DNA of 64,000 bases from a virus. Below, piece after piece: positions 6,642-50,109 of this stretch; the first letter of the stretch is position 1; the number at the start of each line of letters is the position of its first letter. The position numbers were made by a program, and so were the translations under genes. The stretch spans positions 10,928 to 74,927 of IMG/VR virus record IMGVR_UViG_3300020469_000002. The stretch is one strand, 5' to 3'. The notes beneath the pieces were generated by a model that made no database searches, was not told where the DNA came from, and saw only the letters and a list, made by a program, of their open reading frames with translations.

Positions 6642-6652
6642 GGAGACCTACG

Positions 6653-7648
6653 ATGGCAAACCCAACTTGGGCAGCACTCGACGGACAGCGACGCGAGGCG
6701 TTTCAGCGTGCAGTCAACGTGTCGAACGCTGGTTCGTACCTGATCCAGAACTACACAAACCGCATCATCGAGCAGCTTTCGGTTCGCGAGTTTGGTGCTC
6801 TCGGAACTATGGACCGCCGACCCGGTCAGGGCTCGCAGGCCATGGTCAACCGACGCACCGGCGCGACGATGAACGCAGCGAACGTGTGGGTGTCGGACAC
6901 TGTGGCTCTTACTGAGTCCACTGGTTCCTACGATCAGGCGACCTTCACCTACATGACTCTCGCCACTCGTGGCAAGGTCACTCGGAAGATGCGCGCTCGC
7001 GGTCGTTCGTACCTCGACATTCTCGCGGACGAAATGACCCACAAGCTCGACGACTTCAACAACTCGCTGGAAAGCGCGATCTTCACTGGCGACTCGGGTG
7101 CCATCTCGACTCAGATGGACGGTCTGCTCACGCAGATCAACGCCGTCTCGACTCAGGTGATCGCGAACACCAACGCAACTGTTGGCGACTCGCTCACCTT
7201 GTCGAAGCTCGATGAAGCAATCGACGCTGTTCGTGGAGCAGGCAATCGTTCAGATCTTGCGATCTACGCATCGTTCCTCGGCGCCCGCAAGCTGAACGCT
7301 GCACTTCAGGCTGATCAGCAGTTCTCCAACATGGTTGAAGTGGCTGCTGGCTTCCGCGTGCGGACCTACGATGGCATCCCGATCATCGTTTCGACTGGTC
7401 TCGGTGACGACCTCGGTTGGAGCGGTAGCGCGCTGGACAAGCTCGCTGGCGAGACCACCGAGCCGACCACTTCGCTCGTGATCGTCAACAAGCGCCACGC
7501 ATGGCTGGAGGAGCTTACGCCCACCACCATGATGCCGCTTGCTCGCGACGACAGCCAGTTCGAGCAGTTCGACATCTTCTGGGATGGCGCTTGCGTGCTG
7601 GGCAACACCAGCGGTGCAGCAATCCTTGGCGGAATCTCGATCTCCTGA
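6653..7648 (+). CDS. Major capsid protein
   Basis: Follows the protease/scaffold; AGGAGA RBS; about 330 aa; ESAIFTGD...MDGLL and YDGIPII motifs typical of HK97-fold capsids; followed by a terminator. Confidence 0.85.
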   Translation: MANPTWAALDGQRREAFQRAVNVSNAGSYLIQNYTNRIIEQLSVREFGALGTMDRRPGQGSQAMVNRRTGATMNAANVWVSDTVALTESTGSYDQATFTYMTLATRGKVTRKMRARGRSYLDILADEMTHKLDDFNNSLESAIFTGDSGAISTQMDGLLTQINAVSTQVIANTNATVGDSLTLSKLDEAIDAVRGAGNRSDLAIYASFLGARKLNAALQADQQFSNMVEVAAGFRVRTYDGIPIIVSTGLGDDLGWSGSALDKLAGETTEPTTSLVIVNKRHAWLEELTPTTMMPLARDDSQFEQFDIFWDGACVLGNTSGAAILGGISIS

Positions 7649-7679
7649 TCGTCTCGCGCACACTGCGCGGTCGTTCTTT

Positions 7680-7710
7680 ACGCGCCGACGGCATGTTCGT
7701 CGGCGCGTTT
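7680..7710 (+). terminator. Rho-independent terminator after the capsid gene
   Basis: ACGCGCCGACG-GCATGTT-CGTCGGCGCGT followed by TT. Confidence 0.7.
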
Positions 7711-7762
7711 GTGCGTCTGGACTAAAAAGATTTCCGATGATACAGTTCGCATCGGAGGTCAG

Positions 7763-8236
7763 ATGGGTATCCAGACCGAGGTTCCTGAGCGTGGCACTTA
7801 CGAGCACGTTTTGATTCGCAAGGATCGCGACGCAAGTGTCGAGCGCGGTGTTCCCATGCGGTTCGTTTGCTACGGCGAAAACACCGTATCTCGCAGCGTA
7901 GAGTGGCAAGGGAATCGTGTACACACGATTTTTCTTCGAGACCATGTTTCTGCGAAACGCGCATGGCGAAAAGGGTGGATCGACATCACTGATCCATGGT
8001 TTGCGATGCTCGACGATCAGATCTGTGAGCCGACGAGCATTCCACAGCAGGCAATCTTTGAGGCTCTTGACGACAAAGAGTGGAAGTCGAAAGCTGAGAT
8101 CGTGAAGCAGGCTCAGATCAAGGACAGTGAGTGGCGAACAGCCATTCGCACTCTGATCGAAAAAGATCTTGTGAAGGTCACGGGTGCGACGAATCGAAGC
8201 TACCGATACCGTAGAACGGATGTGATCGATGGCTGA
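7763..8236 (+). CDS. Hypothetical protein with C-terminal winged-helix domain
   Basis: GGAGG RBS; QQAIFEAL...KSKAEIVKQAQIKDSEWRTAIRTLIEKDLVKVTG...YRY fits a wHTH pattern. Confidence 0.6.
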   Translation: MGIQTEVPERGTYEHVLIRKDRDASVERGVPMRFVCYGENTVSRSVEWQGNRVHTIFLRDHVSAKRAWRKGWIDITDPWFAMLDDQICEPTSIPQQAIFEALDDKEWKSKAEIVKQAQIKDSEWRTAIRTLIEKDLVKVTGATNRSYRYRRTDVIDG

Positions 8237-8801
8237 TCTCACGACGCAAGCGAAGTGCAAGCGAGCACTTGGAATCCCATCTGCTCTGACCATGCACGAC
8301 GACTATCTGGACACTCTGATTGAAGTCGCAGACGCACAGGTCGTCGGGTACTGCGGCGTGGCTGGATTCACTTCGAGCACCGTCACTGCGGAAGCATACG
8401 ACATCGAAATGACCTCTCAATCAGAGGTTGTTCTTCGGAACTTCCCCGTTTCTGCTGTTTCTGCTGTAGTTTCCGCGGGGACGACTCTGAACGAAAACGC
8501 ATGGTATTTCGACAGCAATACGGGAACGATTCGTCTGGTCTCGTTGGGTGGCTTCTTTCCGCAGGGAAATCAAACAGTCAAAGTGTCTTACACATACGGC
8601 TTTTCTACAATCCCCAGCGACCTCTCACACGCTGCAACGATTGTGGTGTGTGGACTATTCAACCGCACGAGACATGCTGGTCTCGCGACGGAAGCTGCTG
8701 CTGGATACCGATACAGAGTTGAAGATCAAGGGATTCCAAGAGCAGCAGAGGCGATTCTGTCTCGATACAGACGACTCATTCCACGAGGGAGTCAACCATG
8801 A
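8229..8801 (+). CDS. Head-tail connector (gp6-like)
   Basis: LTT..K.K.ALGI, DDYLDTLIE.A...V.GYC, VKVSYTYGF.TIP.DL and IP.AAEAILSRYRR; position after capsid. Confidence 0.8.
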   Translation: MADLTTQAKCKRALGIPSALTMHDDYLDTLIEVADAQVVGYCGVAGFTSSTVTAEAYDIEMTSQSEVVLRNFPVSAVSAVVSAGTTLNENAWYFDSNTGTIRLVSLGGFFPQGNQTVKVSYTYGFSTIPSDLSHAATIVVCGLFNRTRHAGLATEAAAGYRYRVEDQGIPRAAEAILSRYRRLIPRGSQP

Positions 8802-9163
8802 TGTACGAACGCTTCGTAGCCAGCGGCGATCCTACTGGCACTACAATGAAAGTTCGACTCCCTGAACGATACGCAAAAGCAAATCGTGATGGAGATCGAT
8901 GGATCGTTCAAGCTCTCAATGCCGGCGAAGCAAGTCGATTGAAGCGAGAAGACTGGCGAGTCATGATCGCGGTCGCAGAACCCGCTGAAACCATTCCCTC
9001 CTTCGACGTTCTTCTAAGTACGGTCTCTGCTCTGGAGACAGCACTCGCGTCTGGAATCTTCGACGCGTTTTTGCACGAGCTTCGTGAGGAAGAGACATTC
9101 AACAAGAACCGAAGAACTGCACTCGCAGCGATCGATGAACGAATCGAAACGGTTGATGGTTGA
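8798..9163 (+). CDS. Hypothetical head-module protein
   Basis: Overlap-coupled to both neighbours; C-terminal EE..NKNRRTALAAIDERI. Confidence 0.6.
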   Translation: MMYERFVASGDPTGTTMKVRLPERYAKANRDGDRWIVQALNAGEASRLKREDWRVMIAVAEPAETIPSFDVLLSTVSALETALASGIFDAFLHELREEETFNKNRRTALAAIDERIETVDG

Positions 9164-10158
9164 TGCGCGCTCTGATTACAGGCGGCGCGGGCTTCATCGG
9201 AACGAGACTCGTGACATGGCTGCACGATCGCGCCGACGAGATCTTCGTATACGACTCTCGTGAGAAGCCTGCGACTGGCTGGGGTACGTGCGTGAATCTT
9301 CTCGGTCATGATCGTGTGCTTCTTGGCCATGTTCAAGACATGCAGAGAATGTCTGACTTGGTTCAGCGAATCAGGCCCGACGTGGTTCTTCATCTTGCCG
9401 CTCAGTCGCACGTCGATGCTTCGATTAAGTCACCAACAGAAACGATTGAGGCGAATGTACTTGGAACTCACGTCGTTGCGATGGTTTGTGCAAGATGGAA
9501 AGTGCCTCTCGTGTACTGCTCGACGGACGAGGTGTACGGCGACGCTCTCGGGTGTGAAAGAGCATCGCGCGAATATGACCCGCTCGAACCTTCCAGCCCC
9601 TACAGTGCGTCCAAAGCGTCAGGTGAGTTGTTGGTTCGTGCGATCTCGAGAACTTTTGGACTCGACTTCGCAATCACACGAGGAACGAACGCGTTTGGTC
9701 CCGGTCAGTATCCCGAGAAGCTGATTCCTATCGCTTGCCGAATGCTGCATAGCGGAGAGCGAGTGCAGCTTCATGGCGGCGGTTTTCAGATTCGACAATG
9801 GGTACACGTTGACGAGTTCGCAGAGTGTCTCGCGCTCGTGGCGCAGCGACTCGTCGAGAGAGATGAAGACGTGATCGGGCAGACGTTCAATATCGCAGGA
9901 CCCGAACGAATCAGTGTGATTGGACTTGTAGAAATGCTCGCGAAGCGAATGGGTGTGTCAGTCGATGACGCCCACGAAGCTACTGCCGATCGGCCGGGTG
10001 GAGATGCAGAGTACTATGTTGATGGATCTCGGGCACGAGACGTTCTCGGTTTCCAAGCTAAACGAGTAATCACGCACGATAACGAGCTTGAACTCTTGAT
10101 TTCCGAATACGCATCTGTCGGATGCTTTCACGCGACAGTGTATGGAGGTGCAGCATGA
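9163..10158 (+). CDS. rmlB: dTDP-glucose 4,6-dehydratase-like (extended SDR)
   Basis: LITGGAGFIG, HLAAQSHVD.SI, STDEVYG, PSSPYSASKAS, FGPGQYPEKLIP, RQWVHVDE, DRPG.D..Y. Confidence 0.9.
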   Translation: MRALITGGAGFIGTRLVTWLHDRADEIFVYDSREKPATGWGTCVNLLGHDRVLLGHVQDMQRMSDLVQRIRPDVVLHLAAQSHVDASIKSPTETIEANVLGTHVVAMVCARWKVPLVYCSTDEVYGDALGCERASREYDPLEPSSPYSASKASGELLVRAISRTFGLDFAITRGTNAFGPGQYPEKLIPIACRMLHSGERVQLHGGGFQIRQWVHVDEFAECLALVAQRLVERDEDVIGQTFNIAGPERISVIGLVEMLAKRMGVSVDDAHEATADRPGGDAEYYVDGSRARDVLGFQAKRVITHDNELELLISEYASVGCFHATVYGGAA

Positions 10159-10688
10159 GAAACGGTATCAGCGGTGTCGGGGTGGTGCTCGAAGCCTCAA
10201 ATCTTCAGCCTTCTGATTGGAGCGCGATGCACAGGCTTGATGCTGTGATTTCTGCTCCCTTCCCTGCTCGCTACGATCAGGACATCTTCTGCTTGGTGTT
10301 TCAGTCCGAAGATGATGCAGAGGACGCAGATACCATTCGAACTGCTGATGCATTACGAATCGTCTTCATCGGCAAGCCGGGAAAGAAAACACTCGCTGCG
10401 TTGATCGCGCGACACGAACCATCTGGTCTCGTGAAAGCGTTTGTGGTTGATACGACGGTTTTCTGTTTTCGTGTGTACTGGAAAGATTGGCAGCCGCCTT
10501 TGATTGAGAAGTCTCCTAACTTTGAGACCCGAGCGATGAAGTGCGTGACAGAGACACACGCTCAGAAACGCTCTCAGAAGCGCGCTCAGTCTTCGCGAGC
10601 GAAGAAGACGCGCAACGTGTCAGACAACAGCACGACAAGCAGCACAGACGCAGACAGACGCGCTACCGATGCTGCTGGGGATGAATAG
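10155..10688 (+). CDS. Hypothetical protein with low-complexity C-terminus
   Basis: ATGA overlap with rmlB, GGAGG upstream; ends immediately before the next ATG. Confidence 0.6.
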   Translation: MRNGISGVGVVLEASNLQPSDWSAMHRLDAVISAPFPARYDQDIFCLVFQSEDDAEDADTIRTADALRIVFIGKPGKKTLAALIARHEPSGLVKAFVVDTTVFCFRVYWKDWQPPLIEKSPNFETRAMKCVTETHAQKRSQKRAQSSRAKKTRNVSDNSTTSSTDADRRATDAAGDE

Positions 10689-11198
10689 ATGCACGCTTCG
10701 ATTTGCGCATGGGTCACACAGCTTCGACGAAAGTACCCGAAGCACTTTGATGTCGGCTGTAGAGTGCTCGAATACGGATCACGAGATGTGAACGGAAGCG
10801 TTCGACCATATTTCATGGCTCCGAAAGAGTACGTCGGGATCGACTGCTACGCTGGCCCGTGCGTTGACGTGGTTGGGGTTGCTCACGAGTATGAGCCGAA
10901 AAAGGCGAACTTCGATGTCGTGATCACGACGGAAATGCTGGAGCACGACCCGCACTGGAAGCTCACGCTGGAACATGCTGCGCGTATGCTTCGATCTGGT
11001 GGTCTTCTGATCTTGACCTGCGCGGCACCCAAGCGACCCCCACACAACCACTCAGACAGCCCGACTCCCGGGTACTATGAGAACCGTACACCGGCTGAAG
11101 TAGTTGACGAGCTTTCCAAGCACTGCAAATGGAAAGAACTCGACGCATGGCTGGAGCGAGCAGACTTGGATCTGCACTGCGTAGGAATCAAGAAGTGA
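10689..11198 (+). CDS. Class I SAM-dependent methyltransferase (glycan-associated type)
   Basis: VLEYGSRDVNGS, YVGID..AGP.VD, FDVVITTEMLEHDP.W, LRSGGLLILT. Confidence 0.85.
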   Translation: MHASICAWVTQLRRKYPKHFDVGCRVLEYGSRDVNGSVRPYFMAPKEYVGIDCYAGPCVDVVGVAHEYEPKKANFDVVITTEMLEHDPHWKLTLEHAARMLRSGGLLILTCAAPKRPPHNHSDSPTPGYYENRTPAEVVDELSKHCKWKELDAWLERADLDLHCVGIKK

Positions 11199-11821
11199 GC
11201 ACCGTTACCTCGATGGCGACGAGATACTGGACCTTCTATCGAAGGACCGCGTTCGTCGTAGACAGCACGACTCTCGCCGCCACAATCGCGGTGTCGAGAA
11301 ACCTTGACTCGGCTGCTCACATCGACTTGGTGGTCACACTCGATACTGGTGGAAGCATCAACGCAACGATCACGATCGTCGGGACAGACTCAGCGGGAAG
11401 CTCTACAACAGAGGCGATTGCCTTCACGGGAGCCGGTGCGCGTTCATCTACGAAAAGATGGTCGAGCATCACAGAGTTGCAGGTCTCGGGAAGCTACACT
11501 GGGGCGACGATTAAAGCACGCGCCGCAAGTGCAGACGGAACAGCAAACCTGATTCGATACGTCGCCGCGTCGAGCAGACCAATCGCCTTTGCGTTTGCAG
11601 GAGCAGCGAAGTACCCAGCACTGAATCAGGGGTCCCACGAGCTTGATCAGGGCACAGTTTTGATTGACTATGAAGAAGTCTGGACGCCCAGAGTCGGGGA
11701 CATCGCGATCGACGATCAGAACAACGAAGAGTGGGAGATTCGCGGGGTGAGACAGCAAATCTTGGGCTTCGGGGTTCGACCACACCACTACCGGCTACAT
11801 GCAACGATACTGGACTCGTAA
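11195..11821 (+). CDS. Putative head-closure protein with N-terminal beta-sandwich extension
   Basis: GTGA overlap; C-terminal PRVGD.AID...EEWEIRGV...HHYRL resembles head-closure proteins; position fits. Confidence 0.5.
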   Translation: MSTVTSMATRYWTFYRRTAFVVDSTTLAATIAVSRNLDSAAHIDLVVTLDTGGSINATITIVGTDSAGSSTTEAIAFTGAGARSSTKRWSSITELQVSGSYTGATIKARAASADGTANLIRYVAASSRPIAFAFAGAAKYPALNQGSHELDQGTVLIDYEEVWTPRVGDIAIDDQNNEEWEIRGVRQQILGFGVRPHHYRLHATILDS

Positions 11822-11854
11822 TACACACTACGCCGCAGAAACCTTGGAGGTTCA

Positions 11855-14659
11855 ATGGCTACACAGTGGAAGCGTGACGAAACGAACAGCACGCTGATCA
11901 TCATTCCCACGATGGGCAACCCGTCTCTCATCTTGCCCGCAGTACAGCGGGTGGTGATGCACAGCGGGTCTGAGTCTTTTCATCTTTGCATCGTTGCGAA
12001 CCCACAGTGGGAGCATCGAGACGCAGTTGCCGCTGCCGAGCGTCAATGTCGGGTGATTGTCGAGGCGACAAACGCGCTTCGAGAAAACAAGATTCACCTG
12101 ACTTGGGAGCAGATGCCGGGACCTGCTGGATGGGTTGGCGCTGTTAATCAGGGTGTAGAGGTTGTCTCACAGCGCACAGGTCTTCCAGAGCACATCGTTG
12201 TCATGAACGACGATCTTCTGGTGACTGCTGGCTGGACTGATCGACTTCGTGCTGCGTTCGAGACTGAAAATGTCCATCTTCGAATCGAGCTTGTGACGCA
12301 TGGGCAGCGGTATCTCGAAGGAGACGGGCACAGCGCGAAGGCATACGGCAAGATCGGAATGGTTGGTCCGGTGAGCGCGAATGTCGCTGGTGCTCAGAAT
12401 CTTCAGCCCCCGTCTGCACGCGTTCCATCCGGTGCTCTTTTCGAGATTGACCCAGCGCAAGCTCTCGATGACTTCGCGGTTCAGAACGCTGATCAGAACG
12501 ATGGTGTCGTGCTTTCCGCAGACTTCTTGTCTGGCTTCTGCACCATGTATACGCGGGACTGCTTCATCGCGCTTTGCGAGGACAGCGATGACGGGCTTCT
12601 GCTCGACCCGACATACCGAATCGGTGGTTTTGACGACAACGATGTCAGTGCCCGAGCCAGCATCCTTGGCTATCGGTTGGGAATCGCGGTCGACTGCTAC
12701 GTGCATCATCTTGGACATCGCACCTTGGACAAGGTGTATCCATCGCAAGCGCGAGGATTGGCGAACGCGCCACACTTCCTGAAGAAGTGGATGCCTCGAA
12801 CCAAGCGAGATCAGCGACTCGTCGCCGTCTATCGAGTGGGCTTCTCTACATCGTGGGACATCACTATGTTCCGCACTTCACTCGAACGCACTGCCGAGCT
12901 TGTCGATGGCATCGCGGTTCTCGTGACCAACAATCCTAACGACATTCATCGTCATTCGTCGTTTCGGCTGGGCGAGCTTGGCCCTGATGAAGCAGAGCTT
13001 GTTGCGTCTACTGGACCAGACTACCCCGACAAAAAGAGTCCGATCGAAAAGTGGCTCAAAACGGTCGTGGACACAGAGAAGGTCGATCTCGCAGTAGAGT
13101 TTCGAGACTCTGAAAAGCATGAGTGGAACGAACGAGACGAGCGAAACCAAGCAATCGAGCTTGCCGAGAGTCTGAGTCCAGACTGGATGATCTCGATCGA
13201 TCATGACGAAATCGTGGAAGATCGTGTCACTCGCGAAAGTCTCGCTCGACTGATGCGTCACCCAAACCCACTCGTTCAGTCATACGACATCGGGTTTTTG
13301 ACTCACTGGGACACTCCGCGTCTTCACCGCACAGATCGACCATACGCAAACGGCTACTCGTCGAATATGCGCGGTTTTCGTATGTGGCGATTCAACGCTG
13401 CTTCTCCCGCACGAATCCAGACCGGTACTCGAAAGGGTCTGCACTGCGGGAACGTCCCGCCGTTCAGTGAAACGTCGCAGCGAGTATCGGGCATCCGTAT
13501 GCGTCACTTCGGCTACTTGCGAGGCAGTGATCGTCTGCGGAAGTTCAAACGATACGCGGCTTGGATGGACCCGAATCCAAACGATCGACTGACTGGTGGT
13601 GGATACGGGCATATTCTCTGTGAAGAGGGCATGGAGATCAACGCGTACAGCCCGCGAAACGGAATCGTCTTCTCGATGCTCATGCACTCGGGCGAGCGTT
13701 CGTGGGATCTGTACCGTCACTTGGATACTCTGTACGGTCTCGTAGACAAGATCATTCTCGTGTGGACTGACTCTGCTGAGATCCCTGATGACATTCGCAC
13801 AATCGCAGACGCGTTTGAGTGCAAGTGGGTGCATTCTCCATTCGAGGAGTCTTCGTCTCTCGCGAAGTGTCGAAACGCAGCGATTGATCTTGCTCACGAA
13901 GAGGGTGTTCAGTCTCTACGGTGGATGCTCACTTTCGATCCAGACGAGCATCTGGCTGCACCCGTCAATGATGTGATCGCACTGCGTCGAATGGCCGAAG
14001 TGACAGACTCGCTTGGTTGGATGATGCAGTTTCGCAATCACCGATCAGACGGTCAGTTCAATATGTCTGAGACTGTTCGGATGTTCACGCTCGATGATCA
14101 ACGAGTCATGCGGTATTCGGGCAGAGTTCACGAACGACTTGAAGACGCGATGAAGGAGCTTGGGTCTCGCGGGATTCACCCGAAGATTCGATACTCTCCC
14201 TTCATCATCAACCACTATGGTCTCGCGAAAAGCGACCAGCAGATGCAGGATAAGCTGGAGAGGTACACGACTCTTCTTCATGCTGCGATCAAGGAAAACC
14301 CATACGAGTGCGGTCACTGGACATCACTCGGGCTTCAATACGCAAATGACGGCGAAGCCCAGAAGTTCGAAGAGTGTATGCGGATCGCTCGCGAGTGCAG
14401 CGGAAGTGCGTATCTTCCGTGGAAAGTCAGCGGTCAACATGCGCTCCGTCAAGCACGCAAGTATTTTGAGCACTGCGTTCAATCACTTGTCCCAAGTCAT
14501 CCATACGCACGCGATCTGACTCGCATTGTCGAGTGGCTTCGCGAGAACGCTCCGGACATGCCTGTTTCTGGTCACGCTCGAACCGGTGCTGCCTCTCCAC
14601 CAAAAATCGACCTCGACGAGCTTCTGGATCGATACAACAATGGAAGTGAGCAGGAGTAG
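11855..14659 (+). CDS. Multidomain glycosyltransferase (three GT2/GT-A domains plus TPR-like tail)
   Basis: Three DxD-type motifs (VMNDD, ISIDHDE, LTFDPDE), with LSGFC/GGFDDND/VHHLGH, RHFGY and GRVHE/INHYG respectively; helical C-terminus. Confidence 0.85.
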   Translation: MATQWKRDETNSTLIIIPTMGNPSLILPAVQRVVMHSGSESFHLCIVANPQWEHRDAVAAAERQCRVIVEATNALRENKIHLTWEQMPGPAGWVGAVNQGVEVVSQRTGLPEHIVVMNDDLLVTAGWTDRLRAAFETENVHLRIELVTHGQRYLEGDGHSAKAYGKIGMVGPVSANVAGAQNLQPPSARVPSGALFEIDPAQALDDFAVQNADQNDGVVLSADFLSGFCTMYTRDCFIALCEDSDDGLLLDPTYRIGGFDDNDVSARASILGYRLGIAVDCYVHHLGHRTLDKVYPSQARGLANAPHFLKKWMPRTKRDQRLVAVYRVGFSTSWDITMFRTSLERTAELVDGIAVLVTNNPNDIHRHSSFRLGELGPDEAELVASTGPDYPDKKSPIEKWLKTVVDTEKVDLAVEFRDSEKHEWNERDERNQAIELAESLSPDWMISIDHDEIVEDRVTRESLARLMRHPNPLVQSYDIGFLTHWDTPRLHRTDRPYANGYSSNMRGFRMWRFNAASPARIQTGTRKGLHCGNVPPFSETSQRVSGIRMRHFGYLRGSDRLRKFKRYAAWMDPNPNDRLTGGGYGHILCEEGMEINAYSPRNGIVFSMLMHSGERSWDLYRHLDTLYGLVDKIILVWTDSAEIPDDIRTIADAFECKWVHSPFEESSSLAKCRNAAIDLAHEEGVQSLRWMLTFDPDEHLAAPVNDVIALRRMAEVTDSLGWMMQFRNHRSDGQFNMSETVRMFTLDDQRVMRYSGRVHERLEDAMKELGSRGIHPKIRYSPFIINHYGLAKSDQQMQDKLERYTTLLHAAIKENPYECGHWTSLGLQYANDGEAQKFEECMRIARECSGSAYLPWKVSGQHALRQARKYFEHCVQSLVPSHPYARDLTRIVEWLRENAPDMPVSGHARTGAASPPKIDLDELLDRYNNGSEQE

Positions 14660-14663
14660 TGTC

Positions 14664-15188
14664 ATGGAAGTTGAGATCAGATTCCCAGAAATGGGGACAA
14701 CGCTGAAGGACATCGACAAGTTCGGCAGCAAGAAGGCATCAAAGGCAAAGAAGAAGGCACTCCAGAACGCTGGAGCAGTCTTGAAGATTGCGATCCAACA
14801 ACATCTGAGCTTGACTACCTACACGCTCGCAGATCTCGAACGTATGGACCACCCATATGCGAAGCGACACGGATCAATCAAAGTTCATCCATCTCGACCG
14901 TTTGTGGTTCATCAAAGAAGCACGAAAATGCGCAACTCCGTCACGAGTGAGTCGAAGTGGCGAGCAGGCGGGTACGGCGGTGGAGGTGGGTGGGGGCAGC
15001 TTGTCGGACTTGACTACGGAAAGGAAAAATACTTCAAGTACGTGATCGAAGGAACCAACAAGATGCTTCCTCGAAACACTGTTTTCATGGTGAGTCAGCT
15101 TAAAAGTGTTCGCAAGGGCATGATGATGGCTGTTGTTCAAACGCTCGGTCGTCAGCTTCGCACCAAAGCAACTGTGAGATTCAAATAA
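14664..15188 (+). CDS. Tail completion protein (HK97 gp10-like)
   Basis: Basic protein, KALQNAGAVL, Y.KYVIEGTNKMLPR; position before the tail terminator. Confidence 0.65.
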   Translation: MEVEIRFPEMGTTLKDIDKFGSKKASKAKKKALQNAGAVLKIAIQQHLSLTTYTLADLERMDHPYAKRHGSIKVHPSRPFVVHQRSTKMRNSVTSESKWRAGGYGGGGGWGQLVGLDYGKEKYFKYVIEGTNKMLPRNTVFMVSQLKSVRKGMMMAVVQTLGRQLRTKATVRFK

Positions 15189-15604
15189 TGCCTGCCGCAA
15201 GTCTCGCAGACGCGAAGTTTCTGATTCGTGATGTTCTACTCAATGACAGCGATGTTTCTGCCATTGTTGGTGGTCGCGTATTCGGTGCTCATCTTCAAGA
15301 TCCTGATGCACGAACAGTCGAGTACCCGATCGTGATTTTGGATCTTCGATCTGGAGTCGCCTCTACTTCAAGTGTTTCACGAGCAACGCTCGATCTGTGG
15401 GCATACTCGCGGAAGAGTGGTGGAGACGCGTTGCGACTCTACGATGCTTGTCAAAAGGCGCTTCAGCAGGAGCTTCTTCGTCGAGAAGGGATCGCAGTTG
15501 CCGGTTACGTGGTTGAGCAGAACAGACCCAATGAAGGCTGGAATGACAACGTGCGCGCCTACTACGCGCAGGGTGATTTCACCGTTCGCACTGTCAACAG
15601 GTGA
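15188..15604 (+). CDS. Tail terminator protein
   Basis: IRDVLLND.DVSAIVGGRVF, EYPIVIL, LDLWAYS; position. Confidence 0.7.
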   Translation: MPAASLADAKFLIRDVLLNDSDVSAIVGGRVFGAHLQDPDARTVEYPIVILDLRSGVASTSSVSRATLDLWAYSRKSGGDALRLYDACQKALQQELLRREGIAVAGYVVEQNRPNEGWNDNVRAYYAQGDFTVRTVNR

Positions 15605-15607
15605 AAA

Positions 15608-15838
15608 ATGCGTAGTCAAGACTGGTCGAACAGCGCCTCGAAACCCACATCCAGACCTCGATCTCGTGTTTTGATTCGATGTCGTACTTGTGATGAGCTT
15701 GTCGAGGTGACTCCCAGCATTTCTGCTGAAACATTCGCAGAAGCGCAACGAGAAGGAAAGCGTGTAGCGGATTGCTCACGAGTCGTTTCCGCTCGATGTT
15801 CATGCGGAGAGATTTCGTCAACCAGAGGGGCTCTCTGA
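15608..15838 (+). CDS. Small zinc-ribbon protein
   Basis: CRTC...CSCG. Confidence 0.45.
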   Translation: MRSQDWSNSASKPTSRPRSRVLIRCRTCDELVEVTPSISAETFAEAQREGKRVADCSRVVSARCSCGEISSTRGAL

Positions 15839-15956
15839 TGCACGCTCATTTCGCAAACTGTCATGGTGAATGGATCATCGTCGCAACCATTTTCACTCAT
15901 TGTGCTGTGATGGTCAGTTGGCTGCGTTGCCGATTCGTTTCGTCGGAAGGTGATTC

Positions 15957-16292
15957 GTGAGTGTTGAGGATAAGCCCGAAGATCGGCTCACTCAGATGGA
16001 GCGCGTTGTTGCAGAGCAAGAGCAAGCGATCCATATGATTTTTGCTACAGTTCAAGCGATGCGTCGTGGAGATGCAGAGCAGACGCCTCAGCAGGACCGT
16101 GCCCCAATGCGGGACGAGATCTGGTCTTGCTCAAACTGCTCTGCTCGTCTCGGGCTCTACAACAAAGAACGAGAAGAAATGCGCGTTCGATACAAGGACT
16201 TTCTCGTTTACGTGAAGCCCGGTGTGGGTGGAGTGCTTCGCGTCCCGTGTAGACGTTGCGGAGAAGAGAACATTCTGAATAGTACAGACTGA
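15957..16292 (+). CDS. Coiled coil plus zinc-ribbon protein (Mu Com-like)
   Basis: WSCSNCSARLG...VPCRRCGEEN; GGAAGG upstream. Confidence 0.6.
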   Translation: MSVEDKPEDRLTQMERVVAEQEQAIHMIFATVQAMRRGDAEQTPQQDRAPMRDEIWSCSNCSARLGLYNKEREEMRVRYKDFLVYVKPGVGGVLRVPCRRCGEENILNSTD

Positions 16293-16409
16293 CTCTCTGC
16301 TGATCGACGCGTACTGGCGAATGTTCCTCACTCGTGGTAGAACAGAGTCCAGCACGACGCCATACGAAGGCGCACGCGATCTCCATCTACGAACCTCTCG
16401 GAGCACGCG

Positions 16410-16964
16410 ATGCCGTTCAACGTACCTACCGTCACCACAAGCGACATTTCCTTCGGCCCAGCGGTCGTCTATCTCGGAGCAGCAGGCGCGACTCCGAGTG
16501 TTGATGTCGGGGCAATCACCGAGGATGGGGTCTCTGTCGAGATCACCAGTGAAAAGCGATACATCGCTCAGGGCAACCCTCGGATCAACTACTACAACTT
16601 CACTCAGGCTCAGTCCGTCATGGTCGGCTTCACGTCGATCGAATGGGACTTCGAGAACTTTGTGAAGGCACTCGGAGCAGGTGTCACCACCGGCAGTGGT
16701 GCAAGCCCCGACACTTTCTCGTTTGGCGGTGACCCGCTGGTCGATGAGGTTGCGATTCATGTTCAGCACTACATGGCGAGCAGTGGAAACACTCTCAACG
16801 TGTACGTGTGGAAGGCAACAAGTGAGCAGGGTCTCACGATGCCATTCGGTCAAGATGAGCACCAGTTCGAGTTCAAGTTCACCGCGCTTGCGTCGAACAC
16901 TGAATGGAACGGTGGTGCTACCGCTGCGTCCACACGCCTGATCAAGCTGTCTCGCGAAGCGTGA
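16410..16964 (+). CDS. Major tail tube protein
   Basis: ISFGPAVVYLG...DVGAITEDGV; size and position before chaperone and tape measure. Confidence 0.8.
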   Translation: MPFNVPTVTTSDISFGPAVVYLGAAGATPSVDVGAITEDGVSVEITSEKRYIAQGNPRINYYNFTQAQSVMVGFTSIEWDFENFVKALGAGVTTGSGASPDTFSFGGDPLVDEVAIHVQHYMASSGNTLNVYVWKATSEQGLTMPFGQDEHQFEFKFTALASNTEWNGGATAASTRLIKLSREA

Positions 16965-17151
16965 TCTATAGTGTCGCTCACAGTGCGAGATTCGCGCTGT
17001 GAGCGATTCTGATCGCTGCACTGACGAATGATGCACGCTCGACGCTTGCGCTCACACAGCGAGCGGCGAGCGTCGCTTCTGCGCGTCTGCGGTATGTCGC
17101 TGGACTACATGCTCGGCAAACGCTACACTGCGACAACGCCCTGGAGGTGAA

Positions 17152-17649
17152 ATGTCTGAAGTGTCTCAGCCCGATCAAGAGCCTACTGTTCCAGTCGATT
17201 TTCTCGACAACCTCGAAAAGCTGCTTTCAAAGCTGGTTCCACCGTCAAGCGTGACCGTGACGAAGTGCGATGGCACCGAAATCACGCTCCCTGGTGCAAT
17301 CCCAGCACGACGACAGGTCGAGGTCTTCCGTTTGATGCGAGATCTCTCGGAGCAACCTGTTGTGAAACAAGCTCTCGCTGGTGCGGGCACCGGAGCAGCA
17401 GCGAGCATCGTTGACGCAATCCTTCTGTTGGCGATCGACATCGAAGTGGCAGAGTCGCTCGGAAAGATCTTCGACGTTGCATACCCAGGGGTTTTGATCG
17501 ACGAAGACGGCAACAGTCCAGAATCGATCGACGTAATGCCGATTGAGGAGATTGTGGTTGCCCTCGTCCCTTTTTCGGAGAGGTTCATTCGCAGGGTGGG
17601 GGGCGGGTTGTCCGTCCTCGCAGCGAGCGCGATGGACCTCAACGAGTAG
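17152..17649 (+). CDS. Tail assembly chaperone (G-like)
   Basis: GGAGG RBS; position; slippery site near the 3' end. Confidence 0.8.
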   Translation: MSEVSQPDQEPTVPVDFLDNLEKLLSKLVPPSSVTVTKCDGTEITLPGAIPARRQVEVFRLMRDLSEQPVVKQALAGAGTGAAASIVDAILLLAIDIEVAESLGKIFDVAYPGVLIDEDGNSPESIDVMPIEEIVVALVPFSERFIRRVGGGLSVLAASAMDLNE

Positions 17650-43576: not shown

Positions 43577-44058
43577 TGTTCCATTCCTTCGGCTCGCTCT
43601 GCGAGTCGAGCCACACGTCGCCGCACAGAAAACGGCGCACAGTTCAAACGGTCGCGAATCTCTCGCTCAGTCCAGCCTTCGACCCGAGCGCGTACTGCAT
43701 CGCGCTCGTCCTTGGTCGCAAGCTCCAAAACTCGTTGTGCTTCCACACCTGCTTCGATCTTCTTCTGAGAAGCGTTGCTGGGGTGCTCGTTGTCCAAATA
43801 CTCGGTCTCCGTCATTCTTCGACGACGTTGACGAAGAAGTGTGGTCGCAACAGCCCTGCACTGCCATGAAGCCCAGGTTGCCGCGTTGCTTCTCGACTCG
43901 TCGAACCTGCTGTGACACTCGACCAGTCGAACCACGAGGGACTGACGAACATCATCAACGTCCAGACGTTTTGATCGAGCCCAGTGAGCGGCGGTCCGCT
44001 CGACGATGTTGATCCTTGCGAGCCAGTAGACCCACGCTTCAGCGTTGCTCTCGCTCAT
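43573..44058 (-). CDS. Small sigma70-family (ECF-like) sigma factor
   Basis: Region 2-like DDVRQ...RFDESRSNAATW; region 4-like ERDAVRARVEGWTEREIRDRLN...VRRRV. Confidence 0.75.
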   Translation of the reverse strand: MSESNAEAWVYWLARINIVERTAAHWARSKRLDVDDVRQSLVVRLVECHSRFDESRSNAATWASWQCRAVATTLLRQRRRRMTETEYLDNEHPSNASQKKIEAGVEAQRVLELATKDERDAVRARVEGWTEREIRDRLNCAPFSVRRRVARLAERAEGMEQ

Positions 44059-44663
44059 CCGTCAATCTCCTTGTTCCAGTCGAACGCGACCTTGTGAACC
44101 AGATCTGGGTTTTCGTGAGGGCTCTTTCTGTACTCGTCGGTTCCGTCGTATTCGTGAGAACAGATGTTCAAGACCCAGGACTCTGTGGACCCCAGTGCTT
44201 TCCAGCCGTGTGCGACTCCAGGCGGCACACAAACAACTCGCGGGTTTCGCTGACTGTCGAGGACGAGTCTCGTAGCTTTGCCCGTTTGCAGATTGCACAG
44301 GCCCAGCAAGATGCGCCCTCGCAGCACGACGAAGCGGTCCGTCTGCTTTGAGTGAAGATGCCAGCCCTTGATCACTCCAGGCGCAGTCGTAGAAATGTAC
44401 GCTTGCCCAAACGTGGCTGCCATCTTGCCCATGAACGGGGTCAGAGCTTCGAGTGTCGTGAAAGATTCCTCAGCCCAGGACGCTCGATACAACTCTACGA
44501 GCGACCCGCGCTCGTCAAGATGCCAGCGAAGGGAGAAGGAGTAGTGCGTCTCGTCCCACGTCTCGTGTGGTTTCGGGATGTTGATTGGCTCCGTGAAGTG
44601 CTGCGAGTATCCATTCGCAAGCGCACGGCGCACAACAGATTCAGGTGGTTCATTCTCACTCAT
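44055..44663 (-). CDS. rmlC: dTDP-4-dehydrorhamnose 3,5-epimerase
   Basis: DERGSLVE, QAYIS..APGVIKGWHLH..QTD, VPPGVAHG. Confidence 0.88.
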   Translation of the reverse strand: MSENEPPESVVRRALANGYSQHFTEPINIPKPHETWDETHYSFSLRWHLDERGSLVELYRASWAEESFTTLEALTPFMGKMAATFGQAYISTTAPGVIKGWHLHSKQTDRFVVLRGRILLGLCNLQTGKATRLVLDSQRNPRVVCVPPGVAHGWKALGSTESWVLNICSHEYDGTDEYRKSPHENPDLVHKVAFDWNKEIDG

Positions 44664-45052
44664 TTTGTGTCCTCCTTTTGGATCGGTACAAGTTCGAGTG
44701 GGGGCGCGTACCCATGCACGCGAATCCACTCCTGACGCAAAGCGCCGTAGACTGCGCCCGAGACTGGTGCCCGAGACGCGTTTAGAACTCGCCACAGCGC
44801 GCCTACTGCGCTGCGACGCGTTGATCGAGTCGAGACAAGCGCAGACGCGTAGAACGCGCGCAGGCGAGCAGATAGCGCGTGCCATCGACGTGCAAAGAGA
44901 CAAGCGCGATCGACATCTTGACAAGTCATTCCATCATTTTCGTGAAGTGCGAGAACGATCGTCTCGATTGTAGATCCCACGAACTCCACGTCTCGGAGAG
45001 AGTGAAGAACCGCAAGCGCGTGCAAGAGTCGCACGCGCGTGTCCGTTTTCAT
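44660..45052 (-). CDS. Hypothetical protein
   Basis: ATGA coupling to rmlC; fills the gap after the VWA gene. Confidence 0.5.
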   Translation of the reverse strand: MKTDTRVRLLHALAVLHSLRDVEFVGSTIETIVLALHENDGMTCQDVDRACLFARRWHALSARLRAFYASALVSTRSTRRSAVGALWRVLNASRAPVSGAVYGALRQEWIRVHGYAPPLELVPIQKEDTK

Positions 45053-49359: not shown

Positions 49360-50109
49360 TCACTGCCAGCACTTCGTTACCGAATGTTTCACTATCTCGT
49401 GATCGTGTACTCGATTGAAGCATGTTGAGGACGGCGCAGCGACTCCAACGCGCGCCTTCATGTCTTCGGGTGACCAGACTGTGCAATCCAGCGCTTTGTG
49501 ATGTGGGAATCTTGCGCGTAGCAAGTCTTCGAACGTCGTCTCGGGTGGGCACAGTGAAGCGATGGGCGAAAGCTCGTCTCGCAAGATGTAGCCGGAGAGT
49601 GCTTTCGCTGTGTCTTCAACCCATGCGCGATTCGATCTCGTGTACGAGTTGACGAAAGACCAAGCAGAGGATTGCTCTGGAGTAGTGAAGGCGACGCGCA
49701 AGACGTTGCTTCCGTGCTGAAGCGCCAAGTGCTCTGCGACGAGCTTGGATGAAGCGTAGACATTCGCGGATTCGTTGAGAAGCAGCGGCACAACGTAGTC
49801 CGTCGATATGTAGACGGATTCGACGAGATGATCAGTGCAGACCCGGGAGACGACAGACGCGATCTGAGGGTTGATGGACGCGTACTCCAGATCTCTTTCG
49901 CATCGAGCTACGTCCGTCGCTGCTGCGAGACATACGCATCTGTCTATCGAGTGTTCCACGAGGAACATTGAGAGATCTTGCGCGCTCAGAGCATCGAGAT
50001 CAGCGCGAGAAGGGAAGAACGCCGTGGCGTTACCTTTAGGCAGAGAAGTTTTCAGTCTCCTGCCGAGCCTTCCGCTGCCGCCGAGAATCAGCAGCCTGCG
50101 CGCCTTCAC
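49360..50109 (-). CDS. rmlD: dTDP-4-dehydrorhamnose reductase-like
   Basis: ILGGSGRLG, AAATDVARCE, YISTDYV, NVYASSKLVAE. Confidence 0.8.
   Translation of the reverse strand: MKARRLLILGGSGRLGRRLKTSLPKGNATAFFPSRADLDALSAQDLSMFLVEHSIDRCVCLAAATDVARCERDLEYASINPQIASVVSRVCTDHLVESVYISTDYVVPLLLNESANVYASSKLVAEHLALQHGSNVLRVAFTTPEQSSAWSFVNSYTRSNRAWVEDTAKALSGYILRDELSPIASLCPPETTFEDLLRARFPHHKALDCTVWSPEDMKARVGVAAPSSTCFNRVHDHEIVKHSVTKCWQ

What the first reader, a model, noticed from the sequence alone, without database searches (positions are those of the whole stretch)
9163..14659. Candidate virion glycosylation system inside the head-tail operon
Seen: rmlB-like, SAM methyltransferase and a 934-aa protein with three GT-A domains plus a TPR-like tail are interleaved with, and partly overlap-coupled to, connector, closure and tail completion genes. 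Known: RmlB/C/D make dTDP-L-rhamnose; GT2-TPR proteins glycosylate proteins; some mycobacteriophages glycosylate virions using GTs. Inference: one polypeptide primes a structural protein and extends a rhamnose-containing glycan that is then O-methylated. A phage supplying its own donor sugar plus a three-domain GT would be unusual. DNA or host-surface glycosylation is an alternative.
Basis: partly seen in the sequence, partly recalled or inferred. Interest (0 to 1): 0.8.

Follow-up and report, generated by a model that had tools for sequence, protein, structure and literature searches.

The report
Phage neck-operon triple glycosyltransferase system
An uncultured 75-kb marine tailed phage, like more than 200 related protein clusters known only from uncultured phage and metagenome DNA, carries among its head-to-tail joining genes a three-domain sugar-adding enzyme and a changeable set of sugar-making genes, so it probably sugar-coats its own particle, though no experiment has shown this.

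Summary
On the + strand of a complete 74.9-kb IMG/VR siphovirus genome, tightly coupled genes run: head-tail adaptor, g121, RmlB-like 4,6-dehydratase, orphan g188, SAM methyltransferase, stopper (head closure), 934-aa glycosyltransferase, neck and tail-completion genes.

The 934-aa protein folds with high confidence (pLDDT 92) into three GT-A domains, each with an invariant DxD-type motif, plus a TPR tail. Domain 1 resembles polypeptide GalNAc-transferases. Domains 2 and 3 are paralogs. Domain 3 plus TPR is homologous to SunS/ThuS (peptide S-glycosyltransferases) and GmaR (flagellin O-GlcNAc transferase).

The enzyme is a core gene of a large uncultured phage clade, fixed between stopper and neck genes. 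The slot upstream is a hot spot of variable nucleotide-sugar genes. I found no full-length homologue in GenBank phages or in 185,579 prokaryote genomes.

Best reading (about 0.55): self-supplied glycosylation of a virion protein. The acceptor, the sugar (rhamnose is unproven: RmlC/D-like genes are weak and there is no RmlA) and the methylation target are all inferred.

This scan has already noted the same theme on other DNA (78 notes, including an 800-aa triple GT). In the literature, only mycobacteriophages and chloroviruses are known parallels. I rate it a new variant of a known kind.

The parts
8229..8801 (+). Head-tail adaptor (gp6-like); ATGA overlap with the next gene
   Evidence: phrog_442 E 6.4e-25; Pfam Phage_connect_1 and HCP, weak; junction read
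8798..9163 (+). g121, small conserved protein of unknown role (cluster c3, found in 11 related loci)
   Evidence: No family hit; clustering
9160..10158 (+). RmlB-like NDP-glucose 4,6-dehydratase (extended SDR)
   Evidence: Pfam Epimerase E 3e-52; TIGR01181 at 234 bits (cut-off 365); top 10 PDB hits are all dTDP-glucose 4,6-dehydratases at E 6e-45 to 5e-36, then a gap; GxxGxxG, TDE and YxxxK present; found at this position in 32 of 61 related loci
10155..10688 (+). g188/g177, orphan ORF filling the variable slot; ATGA overlap with the dehydratase stop codon; S/T-rich basic tail
   Evidence: No family, no homologue in 61 loci, low-confidence Atlas model; junction
10689..11198 (+). Class I SAM-dependent methyltransferase, substrate unknown
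   Evidence: Methyltransf_23 E 8e-10; phrog_32762 E 1.7e-32; present in 15 of 61 related loci
11213..11821 (+). Stopper / head-closure protein with an inserted beta-sandwich domain (about residues 12-108)
   Evidence: AlphaFold pLDDT 91.5. VIA wide search: GTA 6tba_3A Z 11.5, XkdH Z 10.2, and connector, stopper or neck chains of phiXacJX1, Douge, Chi and R4C. One relative hits Phage_H_T_join_3 at E 3e-4. Lies directly upstream of the GT in 48 of 61 loci
11855..14659 (+). 934-aa soluble triple GT-A glycosyltransferase with TPR tail (whole gene)
   Evidence: AlphaFold pLDDT 92.3, pTM 0.90; family of 81 clusters at 90% identity and 220 clusters at 50% identity; no membrane segment
11879..12808 (+). 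GT domain 1 (residues 9-318): classical GT2/GT-A; invariant N118-D119-D120, D261, D263, H285
   Evidence: VIA Z 18.4 to GalNAc-T4 6h0b (230 residues, rmsd 3.4) and other ppGalNAc-Ts; invariant columns; relatives carry PF13641/PF00535
12809..13648 (+). GT domain 2 (residues 319-598): paralog of domain 3; nearly invariant E-R-N motif (R427, N431) and D449-H450-D451-E452 (E452 invariant, D449-H450-D451 conserved in 90% or more)
   Evidence: hhalign against domain 3: 90%, E 1.7e-6, motifs aligned; K4CP two-domain alignment spans residues 9-579; invariants
13649..14230 (+). GT domain 3 (residues 599-792): SunS/ThuS/GmaR-like GT-A; invariant R673-N674, D695, D697-E698, H759-E760
   Evidence: VIA Z 18.6 to ThuS 7msk_A (254 residues, rmsd 2.8) and Z 17.2 to SunS; profile against the PDB: SunS E 9e-8, GmaR E 2e-6
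14231..14656 (+). C-terminal helical TPR-like tail (residues 793-934)
   Evidence: The profile matches consensus TPR proteins over residues 799-858, E 4.6e-18; seven helices in the model; aligned with the helical domain of ThuS/SunS
14664..15188 (+). Probable Neck1 / tail-completion protein; starts 4 nt after the GT stop codon
   Evidence: phrog_5 E 5e-4, weak; conserved downstream of the GT in 47 of 61 loci; junction
15188..15604 (+). Tail completion protein (gp17 type); TAATG overlap with the neck gene
   Evidence: PF11367 at 27.9 bits, above the 24.5 cut-off; found in 49 of 61 loci
44055..44924 (-). Distant RmlC-like cupin (NDP-sugar epimerase or isomerase type); a possible pathway partner encoded elsewhere. 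The true start is probably later
   Evidence: PF00908 E 5e-10; PF14667 E 9e-14; TIGR01221 at only 24 bits; best PDB hit is dTDP sugar isomerase 3ejk, E 2e-6; found in 4 of 17 related large records
49360..50109 (-). Distant, short RmlD-like reductase; a possible pathway partner
   Evidence: RmlD_sub_bind E 2e-13; TIGR01214 at 55 bits (cut-off 224); the only PDB hits are RmlD enzymes, E about 1e-4; found in 2 of 17 large records. In GC-rich relatives a homologue lies inside the structural-module cassette

Best explanation
This is a self-contained system that glycosylates the phage's own virion proteins, expressed with the late neck genes.

Shown:
- A soluble 934-aa enzyme carries three intact GT-A catalytic domains and a TPR tail.
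- Domain 3 plus the TPR tail is homologous to enzymes that put the first sugar directly on a protein or peptide (SunS/ThuS on Cys, GmaR on flagellin Ser/Thr).
- Domain 2 is a paralog of domain 3.
- Domain 1 is a classical GT2 with a ppGalNAc-T-like fold.
- The gene is a fixed core gene between the stopper and neck genes.
- The slot upstream holds lineage-specific nucleotide-sugar enzymes.

Inferred:
- The TPR tail docks a folded virion protein. Capsid, tail tube or the stopper's extra beta-sandwich are candidates.
- One SunS/GmaR-like domain primes it, and the other two domains extend a short glycan.
- The RmlB-like dehydratase turns a host NDP-glucose into an NDP-4-keto-6-deoxyhexose. The distant RmlC-like and RmlD-like genes may finish this to a 6-deoxyhexose such as rhamnose.
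- The small SAM methyltransferase methylates the sugar.
- The variable cassette gives each phage lineage its own glycan.
For: 1. Architecture:
   - AlphaFold pLDDT 92.3.
   - VIA Z 18.4 to ppGalNAc-T for domain 1 and Z 18.6 to ThuS for domain 3 plus tail.
   - Foldseek top hits are multi-GT-A enzymes and glycocin S-GTs.
   - hhalign of domain 2 against domain 3: 90%, E 1.7e-6.
   - Profile against the PDB: SunS 9e-8, GmaR 2e-6, TPR 5e-18.
   - DxD-type motifs conserved across 57 sequences, fully invariant in domains 1 and 3 and at 90% or more in domain 2.
2. Synteny: in 61 IMG/VR loci the gene lies between stopper and neck or tail-completion genes, while capsid identity falls to 37%. At least 30 of 37 capsid-anchored loci hold it, and 4 more have it further downstream. 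In a different lineage (L054) a 788-aa relative sits directly before the head protease and capsid genes.
3. Coupling: ATGA and TAATG overlaps with no promoter or terminator excess.
4. Donor supply: RmlB-like gene. Cassettes in relatives hold a DegT aminotransferase, UDP-glucose dehydrogenase, GDSL/SGNH, methyltransferases, a B12-radical SAM enzyme and further SDRs. An RmlD-like gene lies inside the cassette in GC-rich relatives.
5. The protein is soluble, max KD(19) 1.35. The genome has no thymidylate-synthase-type hydroxymethylase.
6. Precedents: GmaR glycosylates flagellin and its TPR is proposed to bind the substrate (PMC9638930). Mycobacteriophage capsid and tail-tube glycans are reported (Freeman 2023, as cited in PMC12619734 and PMC11256854). 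Chlorovirus A111/114R is a three-GT-domain capsid-glycan enzyme (PMC7826918).
7. Marine RNA libraries hold identical contigs across the operon; this is weak evidence.
Against: - No acceptor is identified. The capsid and tail-tube proteins have no obvious Ser/Thr-rich extension like those described for mycobacteriophages.
- There is no experimental datum for any member, no cultured relative and no known host.
- Gene position is circumstantial evidence.
- The best Foldseek hits also include polysaccharide polymerases (K4CP, heparosan synthase), and wall-teichoic-acid GTs (TarP, RmlT) score Z 16. Fold alone therefore does not fix the acceptor class.
- The rhamnose pathway is incomplete or weak: no RmlA, and RmlC/D-like genes far below the cut-offs.
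- RNA-library contigs may be DNA carry-over.
Confidence: 0.55

Rival explanations
1. The enzyme modifies a host component rather than the virion. The target could be a cell-envelope polymer or lipid-linked precursor (like prophage TarP on wall teichoic acid) or a host surface protein such as flagellin or pilin. The purpose would be to mask receptors, block superinfection or stop progeny from sticking to lysed cells.
For: GT-A enzymes acting on teichoic acid (TarP 6h4m Z 16.0; RmlT 8bz8 Z 16.1) and polysaccharide synthases appear among the structural matches. GmaR's natural acceptor is a host-cell protein, flagellin (PMC9638930). Seroconverting phage GTs are a known class (Markine-Goriaynoff 2004, as cited in PMC12619734).
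Against: - The protein is soluble with no membrane segment.
- I did not notice a flippase, polymerase or lipid-carrier gene in the cassettes examined.
- The gene is overlap-coupled to late neck genes. It is a fixed core gene at one structural position across a deep clade, not a sporadic moron.
- No prophage copy occurs in 185,579 genomes, so a lysogenic-conversion role is unlikely.
Confidence: 0.17
2. The three domains act as a polymerase (priming plus two alternating transferases, as in K4CP or heparosan synthase). They build a long polysaccharide, either free or anchored to the particle, such as a capsule-like coat, rather than a short protein-linked oligosaccharide.
For: The best Foldseek hits are the bifunctional two-GT-A polymerases K4CP (E 6e-12) and PmHS2, and also LARGE1. 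VIA aligns 391 residues of K4CP across domains 1-2. Domains 2 and 3 are paralogs.
Against: - The large rmsd (11-22 A) shows that only the individual domains match, not the arrangement.
- Sequence-level homology is to the single-transfer protein GTs SunS and GmaR, not to the polymerases.
- A TPR tail points to a protein partner.
- This rival overlaps the best explanation if the polymer is attached to a virion protein.
Confidence: 0.12
3. The enzyme glycosylates phage DNA (base hypermodification) to escape restriction.
For: Phage GTs that hypermodify DNA with diverse glycans are known (Pyle 2024, as cited in PMC12619734). The genome has other candidate DNA-modification genes near the terminase; this comes from unchecked scan notes e1-6089393 and e1-6089392.
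Against: - The complete genome has no thymidylate-synthase-like hydroxymethylase to create 5-hm-pyrimidine acceptors.
- The gene sits in the neck module, not the replication module.
- Its homology is to protein or peptide GTs with a TPR tail.
Confidence: 0.05

Closest known systems
SunS / ThuS glycocin S-glycosyltransferases (PDB 7msn, 7msp, 7msk) and Listeria GmaR flagellin O-GlcNAc transferase (PDB 22ao; PMC9638930)
   Same: A GT-A (GT2) catalytic domain followed by a TPR/helical domain. Domain 3 plus tail matches by structure (Z 18.6 and 17.2) and by profile (E 9e-8 and 2e-6), with the RN, DxDE and HE motifs aligned. These enzymes put the first sugar directly on a peptide or protein.
   Different: - They have one catalytic domain, whereas this protein has three in one chain.
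- Their acceptors are a bacteriocin precursor or flagellin, encoded beside them. Here the neighbours are phage neck proteins.
- Sequence identity is below 20%.
Mycobacteriophage virion glycosylation (Che8, Corndog and others; Freeman et al. 2023, Cell Host Microbe 31:1216, as cited in PMC11256854 and PMC12619734)
   Same: Phage-encoded glycosyltransferases proposed or shown to decorate the phage's own capsid and tail-tube subunits. This is the functional model adopted here.
   Different: - No detectable sequence relation: tblastn of the 934-aa protein against 50,697 GenBank phage records finds nothing.
- In cluster F1 phages the GT genes lie near the right genome end (PMC11256854), not inside the neck operon.
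- Those phages use separate GT genes, not a triple fusion.
- The acceptor C-terminal extensions are not evident here.
Chlorovirus PBCV-1 multidomain glycosyltransferases A111/114R and A064R (PMC7826918)
   Same: Virus-encoded single polypeptides with three transferase domains of about 300 aa each, which build capsid-protein glycans independently of host machinery. A064R is described in that paper as a second three-domain protein. From my own knowledge, the virus also encodes sugar-nucleotide enzymes and methylated rhamnose occurs in its glycan.
   Different: This is a eukaryotic giant virus with N-linked glycans. I did not test for homology because no sequence was at hand. There is no TPR tail and no link to a head-tail operon.
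dTDP-L-rhamnose pathway RmlA-D
   Same: The RmlB-like enzyme is a good 4,6-dehydratase. A cupin and a short SDR elsewhere in the genome resemble RmlC and RmlD.
   Different: There is no RmlA. All three genes score below the equivalog cut-offs and are scattered over 40 kb. The RmlC/D-like genes are restricted to the nearest relatives. The product could be another 6-deoxyhexose, and the nucleotide could be UDP rather than dTDP.

Membership tests
GT-A fold glycosyltransferases (GT2-like) | Rossmann-like alpha/beta/alpha GT-A fold | tested here: met
   AlphaFold pLDDT 92.3. Domain 1: Z 18.4 to ppGalNAc-T. Domain 3: Z 18.6 to ThuS. Domains 1-2 align to the two GT-A domains of K4CP. Domain 2 is homologous to domain 3.
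GT-A fold glycosyltransferases (GT2-like) | DxD-type acidic motif directly after a core beta-strand, in each domain | tested here: met
   N118-D119-D120 follows strand 113-117, D449-H450-D451-E452 follows strand 444-448, and D695-P-D697-E698 follows strand 688-694. The motif residues are invariant in domains 1 and 3; in domain 2 E452 is invariant and D449-H450-D451 are conserved in 90% or more of 57 sequences.
GT-A fold glycosyltransferases (GT2-like) | Pfam GT2 model above the gathering score | tested here: not met
   In the window protein, PF00535 scores 19.6 bits (cut-off 23.3) and PF13704 scores 17.6 (cut-off 27.5). Many relatives carry precomputed PF13641/PF00535 hits. It is therefore a divergent member by sequence and a clear one by fold.
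GT2-TPR protein/peptide glycosyltransferases (SunS, ThuS, GmaR type) | GT-A domain fused to a C-terminal TPR/helical domain, with detectable homology | tested here: met
   Profile against the PDB: SunS E 9.2e-8, GmaR E 2.1e-6, consensus TPR E 4.6e-18. ThuS aligns 254 residues at rmsd 2.8 across the GT and helical domains.
GT2-TPR protein/peptide glycosyltransferases (SunS, ThuS, GmaR type) | The acceptor is a protein or peptide side chain | not testable with these tools
   This needs enzyme assays or mass spectrometry. There is only contextual support.
dTDP-glucose 4,6-dehydratase (RmlB) | NAD-binding GxxGxxG, catalytic Thr-Asp-Glu and YxxxK | tested here: met
   The motifs are read and align with E. 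coli 1bxk.
dTDP-glucose 4,6-dehydratase (RmlB) | Score above the TIGR01181 equivalog cut-off | tested here: not met
   234 bits against a cut-off of 365. The ten best PDB hits are nevertheless all RmlB enzymes, followed by a 10-order E-value gap. Nucleotide specificity is left open.
Complete dTDP-L-rhamnose pathway (RmlA-D) | RmlA thymidylyltransferase present | tested here: not met
   PF00483 is absent from the complete 74.9-kb genome, while the control genomes were all positive. The host would have to supply NDP-glucose.
Complete dTDP-L-rhamnose pathway (RmlA-D) | Bona fide RmlC 3,5-epimerase and RmlD reductase | tested here: inconclusive
   TIGR01221 scores 24 bits (cut-off 156) and TIGR01214 scores 55 bits (cut-off 224). 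PDB hits are weak but of the right kinds.
Mycobacteriophage virion glycosylation system | Homologous glycosyltransferases | tested here: not met
   No tblastn match at E <= 1e-3 in 50,697 GenBank phage records, which include mycobacteriophages.
Mycobacteriophage virion glycosylation system | Glycans on capsid or tail-tube subunits | not testable with these tools
   This requires virions. No S/T-rich C-terminal extension is seen in the capsid or tail-tube proteins.
Siphovirus stopper / head-closure protein (for g230) | Stopper beta-barrel fold, and position between adaptor and tail-completion genes | tested here: met
   Z 11.5 to GTA 6tba_3A, Z 10.2 to XkdH and many neck or stopper chains. One relative hits Phage_H_T_join_3.

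The most novel reading that the evidence does not exclude
A very large, wholly uncultured clade of about 75-kb siphoviruses, with genomes ranging from 55% GC (this marine phage) to 72% GC in relatives, coats its virions with a lineage-specific glycan, in effect a phage 'serotype'. A single prime-and-extend triple glycosyltransferase is hard-wired into the neck operon and makes the glycan. It is fed by an O-antigen-like hypervariable cassette of nucleotide-sugar tailoring genes: dehydratase, aminotransferase, dehydrogenase, methyl- and acyl-modifying enzymes and a radical-SAM enzyme. The stopper's inserted beta-sandwich may be the acceptor or a glycan-binding collar.
Probability: 0.35. Interest if true: 0.8.

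Novelty: new variant of a known kind. Interest (0 to 1): 0.62.

Why it matters
Virion glycosylation in phages has been shown only for mycobacteriophages, where it alters antibody recognition. If this reading is right, self-supplied glycan coats are widespread in environmental tailed phages. They would be built by an enzyme family unrelated to the mycobacteriophage one, and they would diversify through a cassette hot spot much as bacterial O-antigens do.

That would bear on several questions:
- phage stability and stickiness in seawater;
- recognition by hosts and grazers;
- the interpretation of 'auxiliary metabolic' sugar genes in viromes, which here would serve the particle rather than host metabolism.

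The enzyme is also a compact three-active-site protein glycosylation machine of possible biotechnological use. It is directly testable by co-expression in E. coli.

Tried and rejected
I used IMG/VR loci instead.
- **Megablast of the region and tblastn of the GT** against GenBank phages found nothing. The capsid protein gave only one marginal hit, to a Bacillus phage. No cultured relative is therefore known.
- **Genome-contig scan** gave only single-domain hits at 26-29% identity, with no structural genes nearby. There is no prophage and no host clue.
- **L066** is a 322-aa bacterial GT2-TPR beside a terminase gene. It says nothing about the acceptor. The T6SS link claimed by scan note e1-6030850 was not reproduced or tested.
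- **PF00535 search of the phage's own genome** returned nothing, not even the GT itself. It cannot be used to say that there is no other GT.
- **Atlas search for orphan g188** gave nothing above noise.
- **Pfam on ten cassette proteins of relatives** was mostly blank.
- **Foldseek 'pdb' for the stopper model** failed because the machine did not answer. The VIA wide search was used instead.
- **A pattern scan with the stopper alignment** was impossible because no stretch is conserved enough.
- **The stopper's insert** resembles carbohydrate-binding beta-sandwiches only at noise level (Z 7-8), and a fucose-lectin profile hit has E 0.077. I make no claim from either.
- **Ser/Thr-rich acceptor tails:** I looked for them in the capsid and tail-tube proteins and found none convincing.
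- **RNA-library contigs** come from one sample, contig depth cannot rank genes, and no silent control stretch was laid. This is only a weak hint of transcription.

Full report
**Context.** The window is bases 10928-74927 of a complete 74,927-bp IMG/VR virus record with direct terminal repeats. The + strand carries a standard siphovirus morphogenesis operon:

- portal, 446-4093
- protease/scaffold, 4149-6641
- major capsid protein, 6632-7648
- g175
- head-tail adaptor, 8229-8801
- g121
- RmlB-like gene, 9160-10158
- g188
- SAM methyltransferase, 10689-11198
- g230, 11213-11821
- the 934-aa ORF, 11855-14659
- a probable Neck1/tail-completion gene, 14664-15188
- a gp17-type tail completion gene, 15188-15604
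- an Ig-domain tail-tube candidate, 16410-16964
- chaperones
- a 1584-aa tape measure

The dehydratase has the NAD-binding glycine motif, the Thr-Asp-Glu triad and YxxxK. Its ten best matches among solved structures are all dTDP-glucose 4,6-dehydratases (E 6e-45 to 5e-36), followed by a gap to epimerases at 1e-25. It nevertheless scores below the TIGR01181 equivalog cut-off (234 against 365 bits).

The methyltransferase is a small class I SAM enzyme with no solved relative by sequence.

It scores Z 11.5 to the GTA stopper, Z 10.2 to PBSX XkdH, and matches neck chains of Chi, Douge, phiXacJX1 and R4C. It also has an extra beta-sandwich of about 95 residues inserted near the N-terminus.

The gene junctions are ATGA overlaps (adaptor/g121, dehydratase/g188), TAG directly followed by ATG (g188/methyltransferase), a 4-nt gap (GT/neck) and TAATG (neck/tail completion). 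There is no excess of promoter-like or terminator-like sites between 8 and 16 kb. The only convincing hairpin follows the capsid gene.

**The 934-aa protein.** Pfam sees only sub-threshold GT2 signals, but the family is large and alignable. I found 81 clusters at 90% identity. An exhaustive HMMER search gave 220 clusters at 50% identity with E <= 1e-30.

With a 57-sequence alignment (A1) AlphaFold gives pLDDT 92.3 and pTM 0.90.

| Part | Residues | Evidence |
|---|---|---|
| Domain 1 | 9-318 | Superposes on the catalytic domain of polypeptide GalNAc-transferases (Z 18.4, 230 residues, rmsd 3.4) |
| Domain 2 | 319-598 | Paralog of domain 3 (hhalign 90%, E 1.7e-6, with the RN and DxDE motifs in register) |
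| Domain 3 plus helical tail | 599-934 | Superposes on the glycocin S-glycosyltransferases ThuS and SunS (Z 18.6 and 17.2, about 255 residues) |

K4CP, a two-GT-A polymerase, aligns across domains 1-2.

A profile of the family finds SunS (E 9e-8), GmaR (E 2e-6) and consensus TPR proteins (E 5e-18 over residues 799-858) among solved structures.

All three domains keep a DxD-type motif directly after a core strand: NDD at 118-120, DHDE at 449-452 and DPDE at 695-698. These residues are invariant across the family in domains 1 and 3. In domain 2, E452 is invariant and D449, H450 and D451 are conserved in at least 90% of sequences. So all three catalytic sites look intact. The protein has no membrane segment. 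'Three GT-A domains plus a TPR-like tail' is therefore correct.

**Conservation and context.**

- *GT-anchored scan.* A scan of IMG/VR with the family alignment returned 61 loci. In these the gene lies directly after the stopper (48 loci). It is followed by the neck gene (47), tail-completion gene (49), tail-tube gene (53) and tape-measure gene (45). Across these loci capsid identity to the window falls from 73% to 37%.
- *Capsid-anchored scan.* I then anchored on the capsid protein, independently of the GT. Of 37 loci with at least 8 kb downstream, 30 hold the GT. Four of the remaining seven are contigs where the GT lies further downstream. It is therefore a core gene of the clade and not a moron.
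- *Shorter relatives.* More distant relatives of about 780 aa share domains 2, 3 and the tail. They also sit in neck modules (L055, L056, L058). In L054 the relative sits immediately upstream of a different head protease and capsid gene pair.
- *Absence elsewhere.* No full-length relative exists in 50,697 GenBank phage records or in 185,579 prokaryote genomes.

**The variable cassette.** The space between the adaptor and the stopper is a hot spot.

- The RmlB-like gene occupies it in 32 of 61 loci and the methyltransferase in 15. g188 has no homologue anywhere.
- Other lineages carry GDSL/SGNH esterases, a UDP-glucose/GDP-mannose dehydrogenase, a DegT-type sugar aminotransferase with two SDRs, and larger methyltransferases.
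- In GC-rich (62-72%) relatives the capsid-to-GT distance grows to about 19.5 kb. That stretch holds more SDR dehydratase/epimerases, four methyltransferases, a B12-binding radical SAM enzyme, phosphodiesterase-family proteins and a GDSL enzyme.
- These are all soluble nucleotide-sugar or glycan-tailoring activities. I did not notice a flippase or polymerase of the lipid-linked pathways.

- The ORF at 44055-44924 (-) has a sugar-epimerase-type cupin (PF00908 E 5e-10, PF14667 E 9e-14). It scores only 24 bits on the RmlC equivalog model. Its best solved match is a 'dTDP sugar isomerase'.
- The ORF at 49360-50109 (-) is a short SDR. Its only solved matches are RmlD enzymes, at E about 1e-4.
- Among 17 large related records, the RmlC-like gene occurs in 4 and the RmlD-like gene in 2.
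- In the GC-rich relatives, however, an RmlD-like gene lies inside the structural cassette. This ties that enzyme type to the system.
- The genome has no RmlA.

A 6-deoxyhexose is a reasonable guess. L-rhamnose specifically, and dTDP rather than UDP as the carrier, are unproven.

**Mechanism.**

*Shown:* a three-site soluble GT with a protein-binding-type tail; homology to enzymes that glycosylate proteins directly; fixed co-location and coupling with neck genes; and adjacent lineage-specific sugar-nucleotide enzymes.

*Inferred:* late in infection the TPR tail docks a virion protein. One of the SunS/GmaR-like domains attaches the first sugar, and the other two domains extend it. The dehydratase, with helpers, supplies an unusual donor, and the methyltransferase caps the sugar.

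The acceptor is unknown. The capsid and tail-tube proteins lack obvious Ser/Thr-rich tails. The stopper's inserted, Gly/Thr/Ser-rich beta-sandwich is a candidate only by proximity.

*Rivals:* host envelope or host protein modification, a polysaccharide polymerase, and DNA glycosylation. DNA glycosylation is disfavoured by the absence of a hydroxymethylase and by the homology pattern.

**Expression hint.** The stretch is held at 100% of sampled words in marine metagenomes of several studies, and at 58-73% in four metatranscriptomic runs of one sample. Contigs from those RNA runs are identical to the window and cover all of 4000-20000. Depth is higher on the capsid and tail-tube genes (about 20-24) than on the sugar and GT genes (about 1-10). 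Contig depth cannot rank genes and DNA carry-over was not excluded, so this is only weakly supportive of late-operon transcription.

**Comparison with what is known.**

- The closest enzymes are SunS/ThuS and GmaR (single GT-A plus TPR). GmaR glycosylates flagellin, and its TPR is proposed to recognise the substrate (PMC9638930).
- The closest biological precedent is mycobacteriophage virion glycosylation (Freeman 2023, as cited in PMC11256854 and PMC12619734). It uses unrelated, separately encoded GTs.
- The closest architectural analogues are the chlorovirus three-domain enzymes A111/114R and A064R, which build capsid glycans (PMC7826918).
- My full-text searches turned up no paper describing this phage family.
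- This scan's own notes already contain 78 entries on GT-TPR enzymes in phage head or neck modules. They include an 800-aa triple-GT case, e1-6030850. The theme has therefore been seen before on other DNA within the scan. Those notes are unchecked and are not independent evidence.

**Verdict.** This is a new variant of a known kind: phage-encoded virion glycosylation, with a new enzyme architecture, a new position and a diversifying donor cassette. Confidence in the virion-glycosylation reading is about 0.55. Interest is 0.62.

Noticed in passing
window 11213-11821 (residues about 12-108 of the stopper): The stopper/head-closure protein is about twice the usual size because a beta-sandwich domain is inserted in it. 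The insert has a conserved Gly/Thr-rich motif and is present in all 24 aligned relatives. Its fold matches to carbohydrate-binding-type sandwiches are at noise level only (Z 7-8).
   Followed up: partly
window 446-4093 and 4149-6641: The portal ORF is 1215 aa, but portal profiles cover only residues about 66-596, so a C-terminal extension of about 600 aa is unexplained. The next ORF (830 aa) matches a head maturation protease only at residues 101-351, which suggests a protease-scaffold fusion.
   Followed up: no
window 43573-50109, minus strand: The RmlC-like and RmlD-like genes sit among a sigma-70 region-2 protein (43573-44058), a VWA protein (45063-46481), a MoxR-type AAA+ ATPase (46608-47897) and a DUF6744 protein (48079-49230).
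   Followed up: no
L102:10001-20960 with L023:1-10000 (one IMG/VR contig, 71-72% GC): In GC-rich relatives the capsid gene and the triple GT are about 19.5 kb apart. The interval holds an HNH endonuclease, several SDRs and methyltransferases, a B12-binding radical SAM enzyme, phosphodiesterase-family proteins and an RmlD-like gene. It looks like a much-expanded glycan island.
   Followed up: partly
L066:8409-10948 (Candidatus Kapaibacterium chromosome): A 322-aa single-domain GT2-TPR relative of domain 3 lies divergently next to a terminase large-subunit gene in a bacterial chromosome. It may mark the edge of a prophage remnant.
   Followed up: partly
window 22745-27400: A 1551-aa ORF directly after the tape measure has no PHROG match at all. 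It is presumably a distal tail or host-recognition protein.
   Followed up: no
window 7654-7670: A GC-rich hairpin followed by a T-run lies just after the capsid gene stop codon. It is the only convincing terminator-like site in 6-18 kb and fits the step down in RNA-library contig depth after the capsid gene.
   Followed up: partly
L054:9791-15641: In a divergent 99-kb phage, a 788-aa relative of the enzyme sits immediately upstream of a head maturation protease and a different capsid family (phrog_138). This is a second, independent association with head genes.
   Followed up: partly
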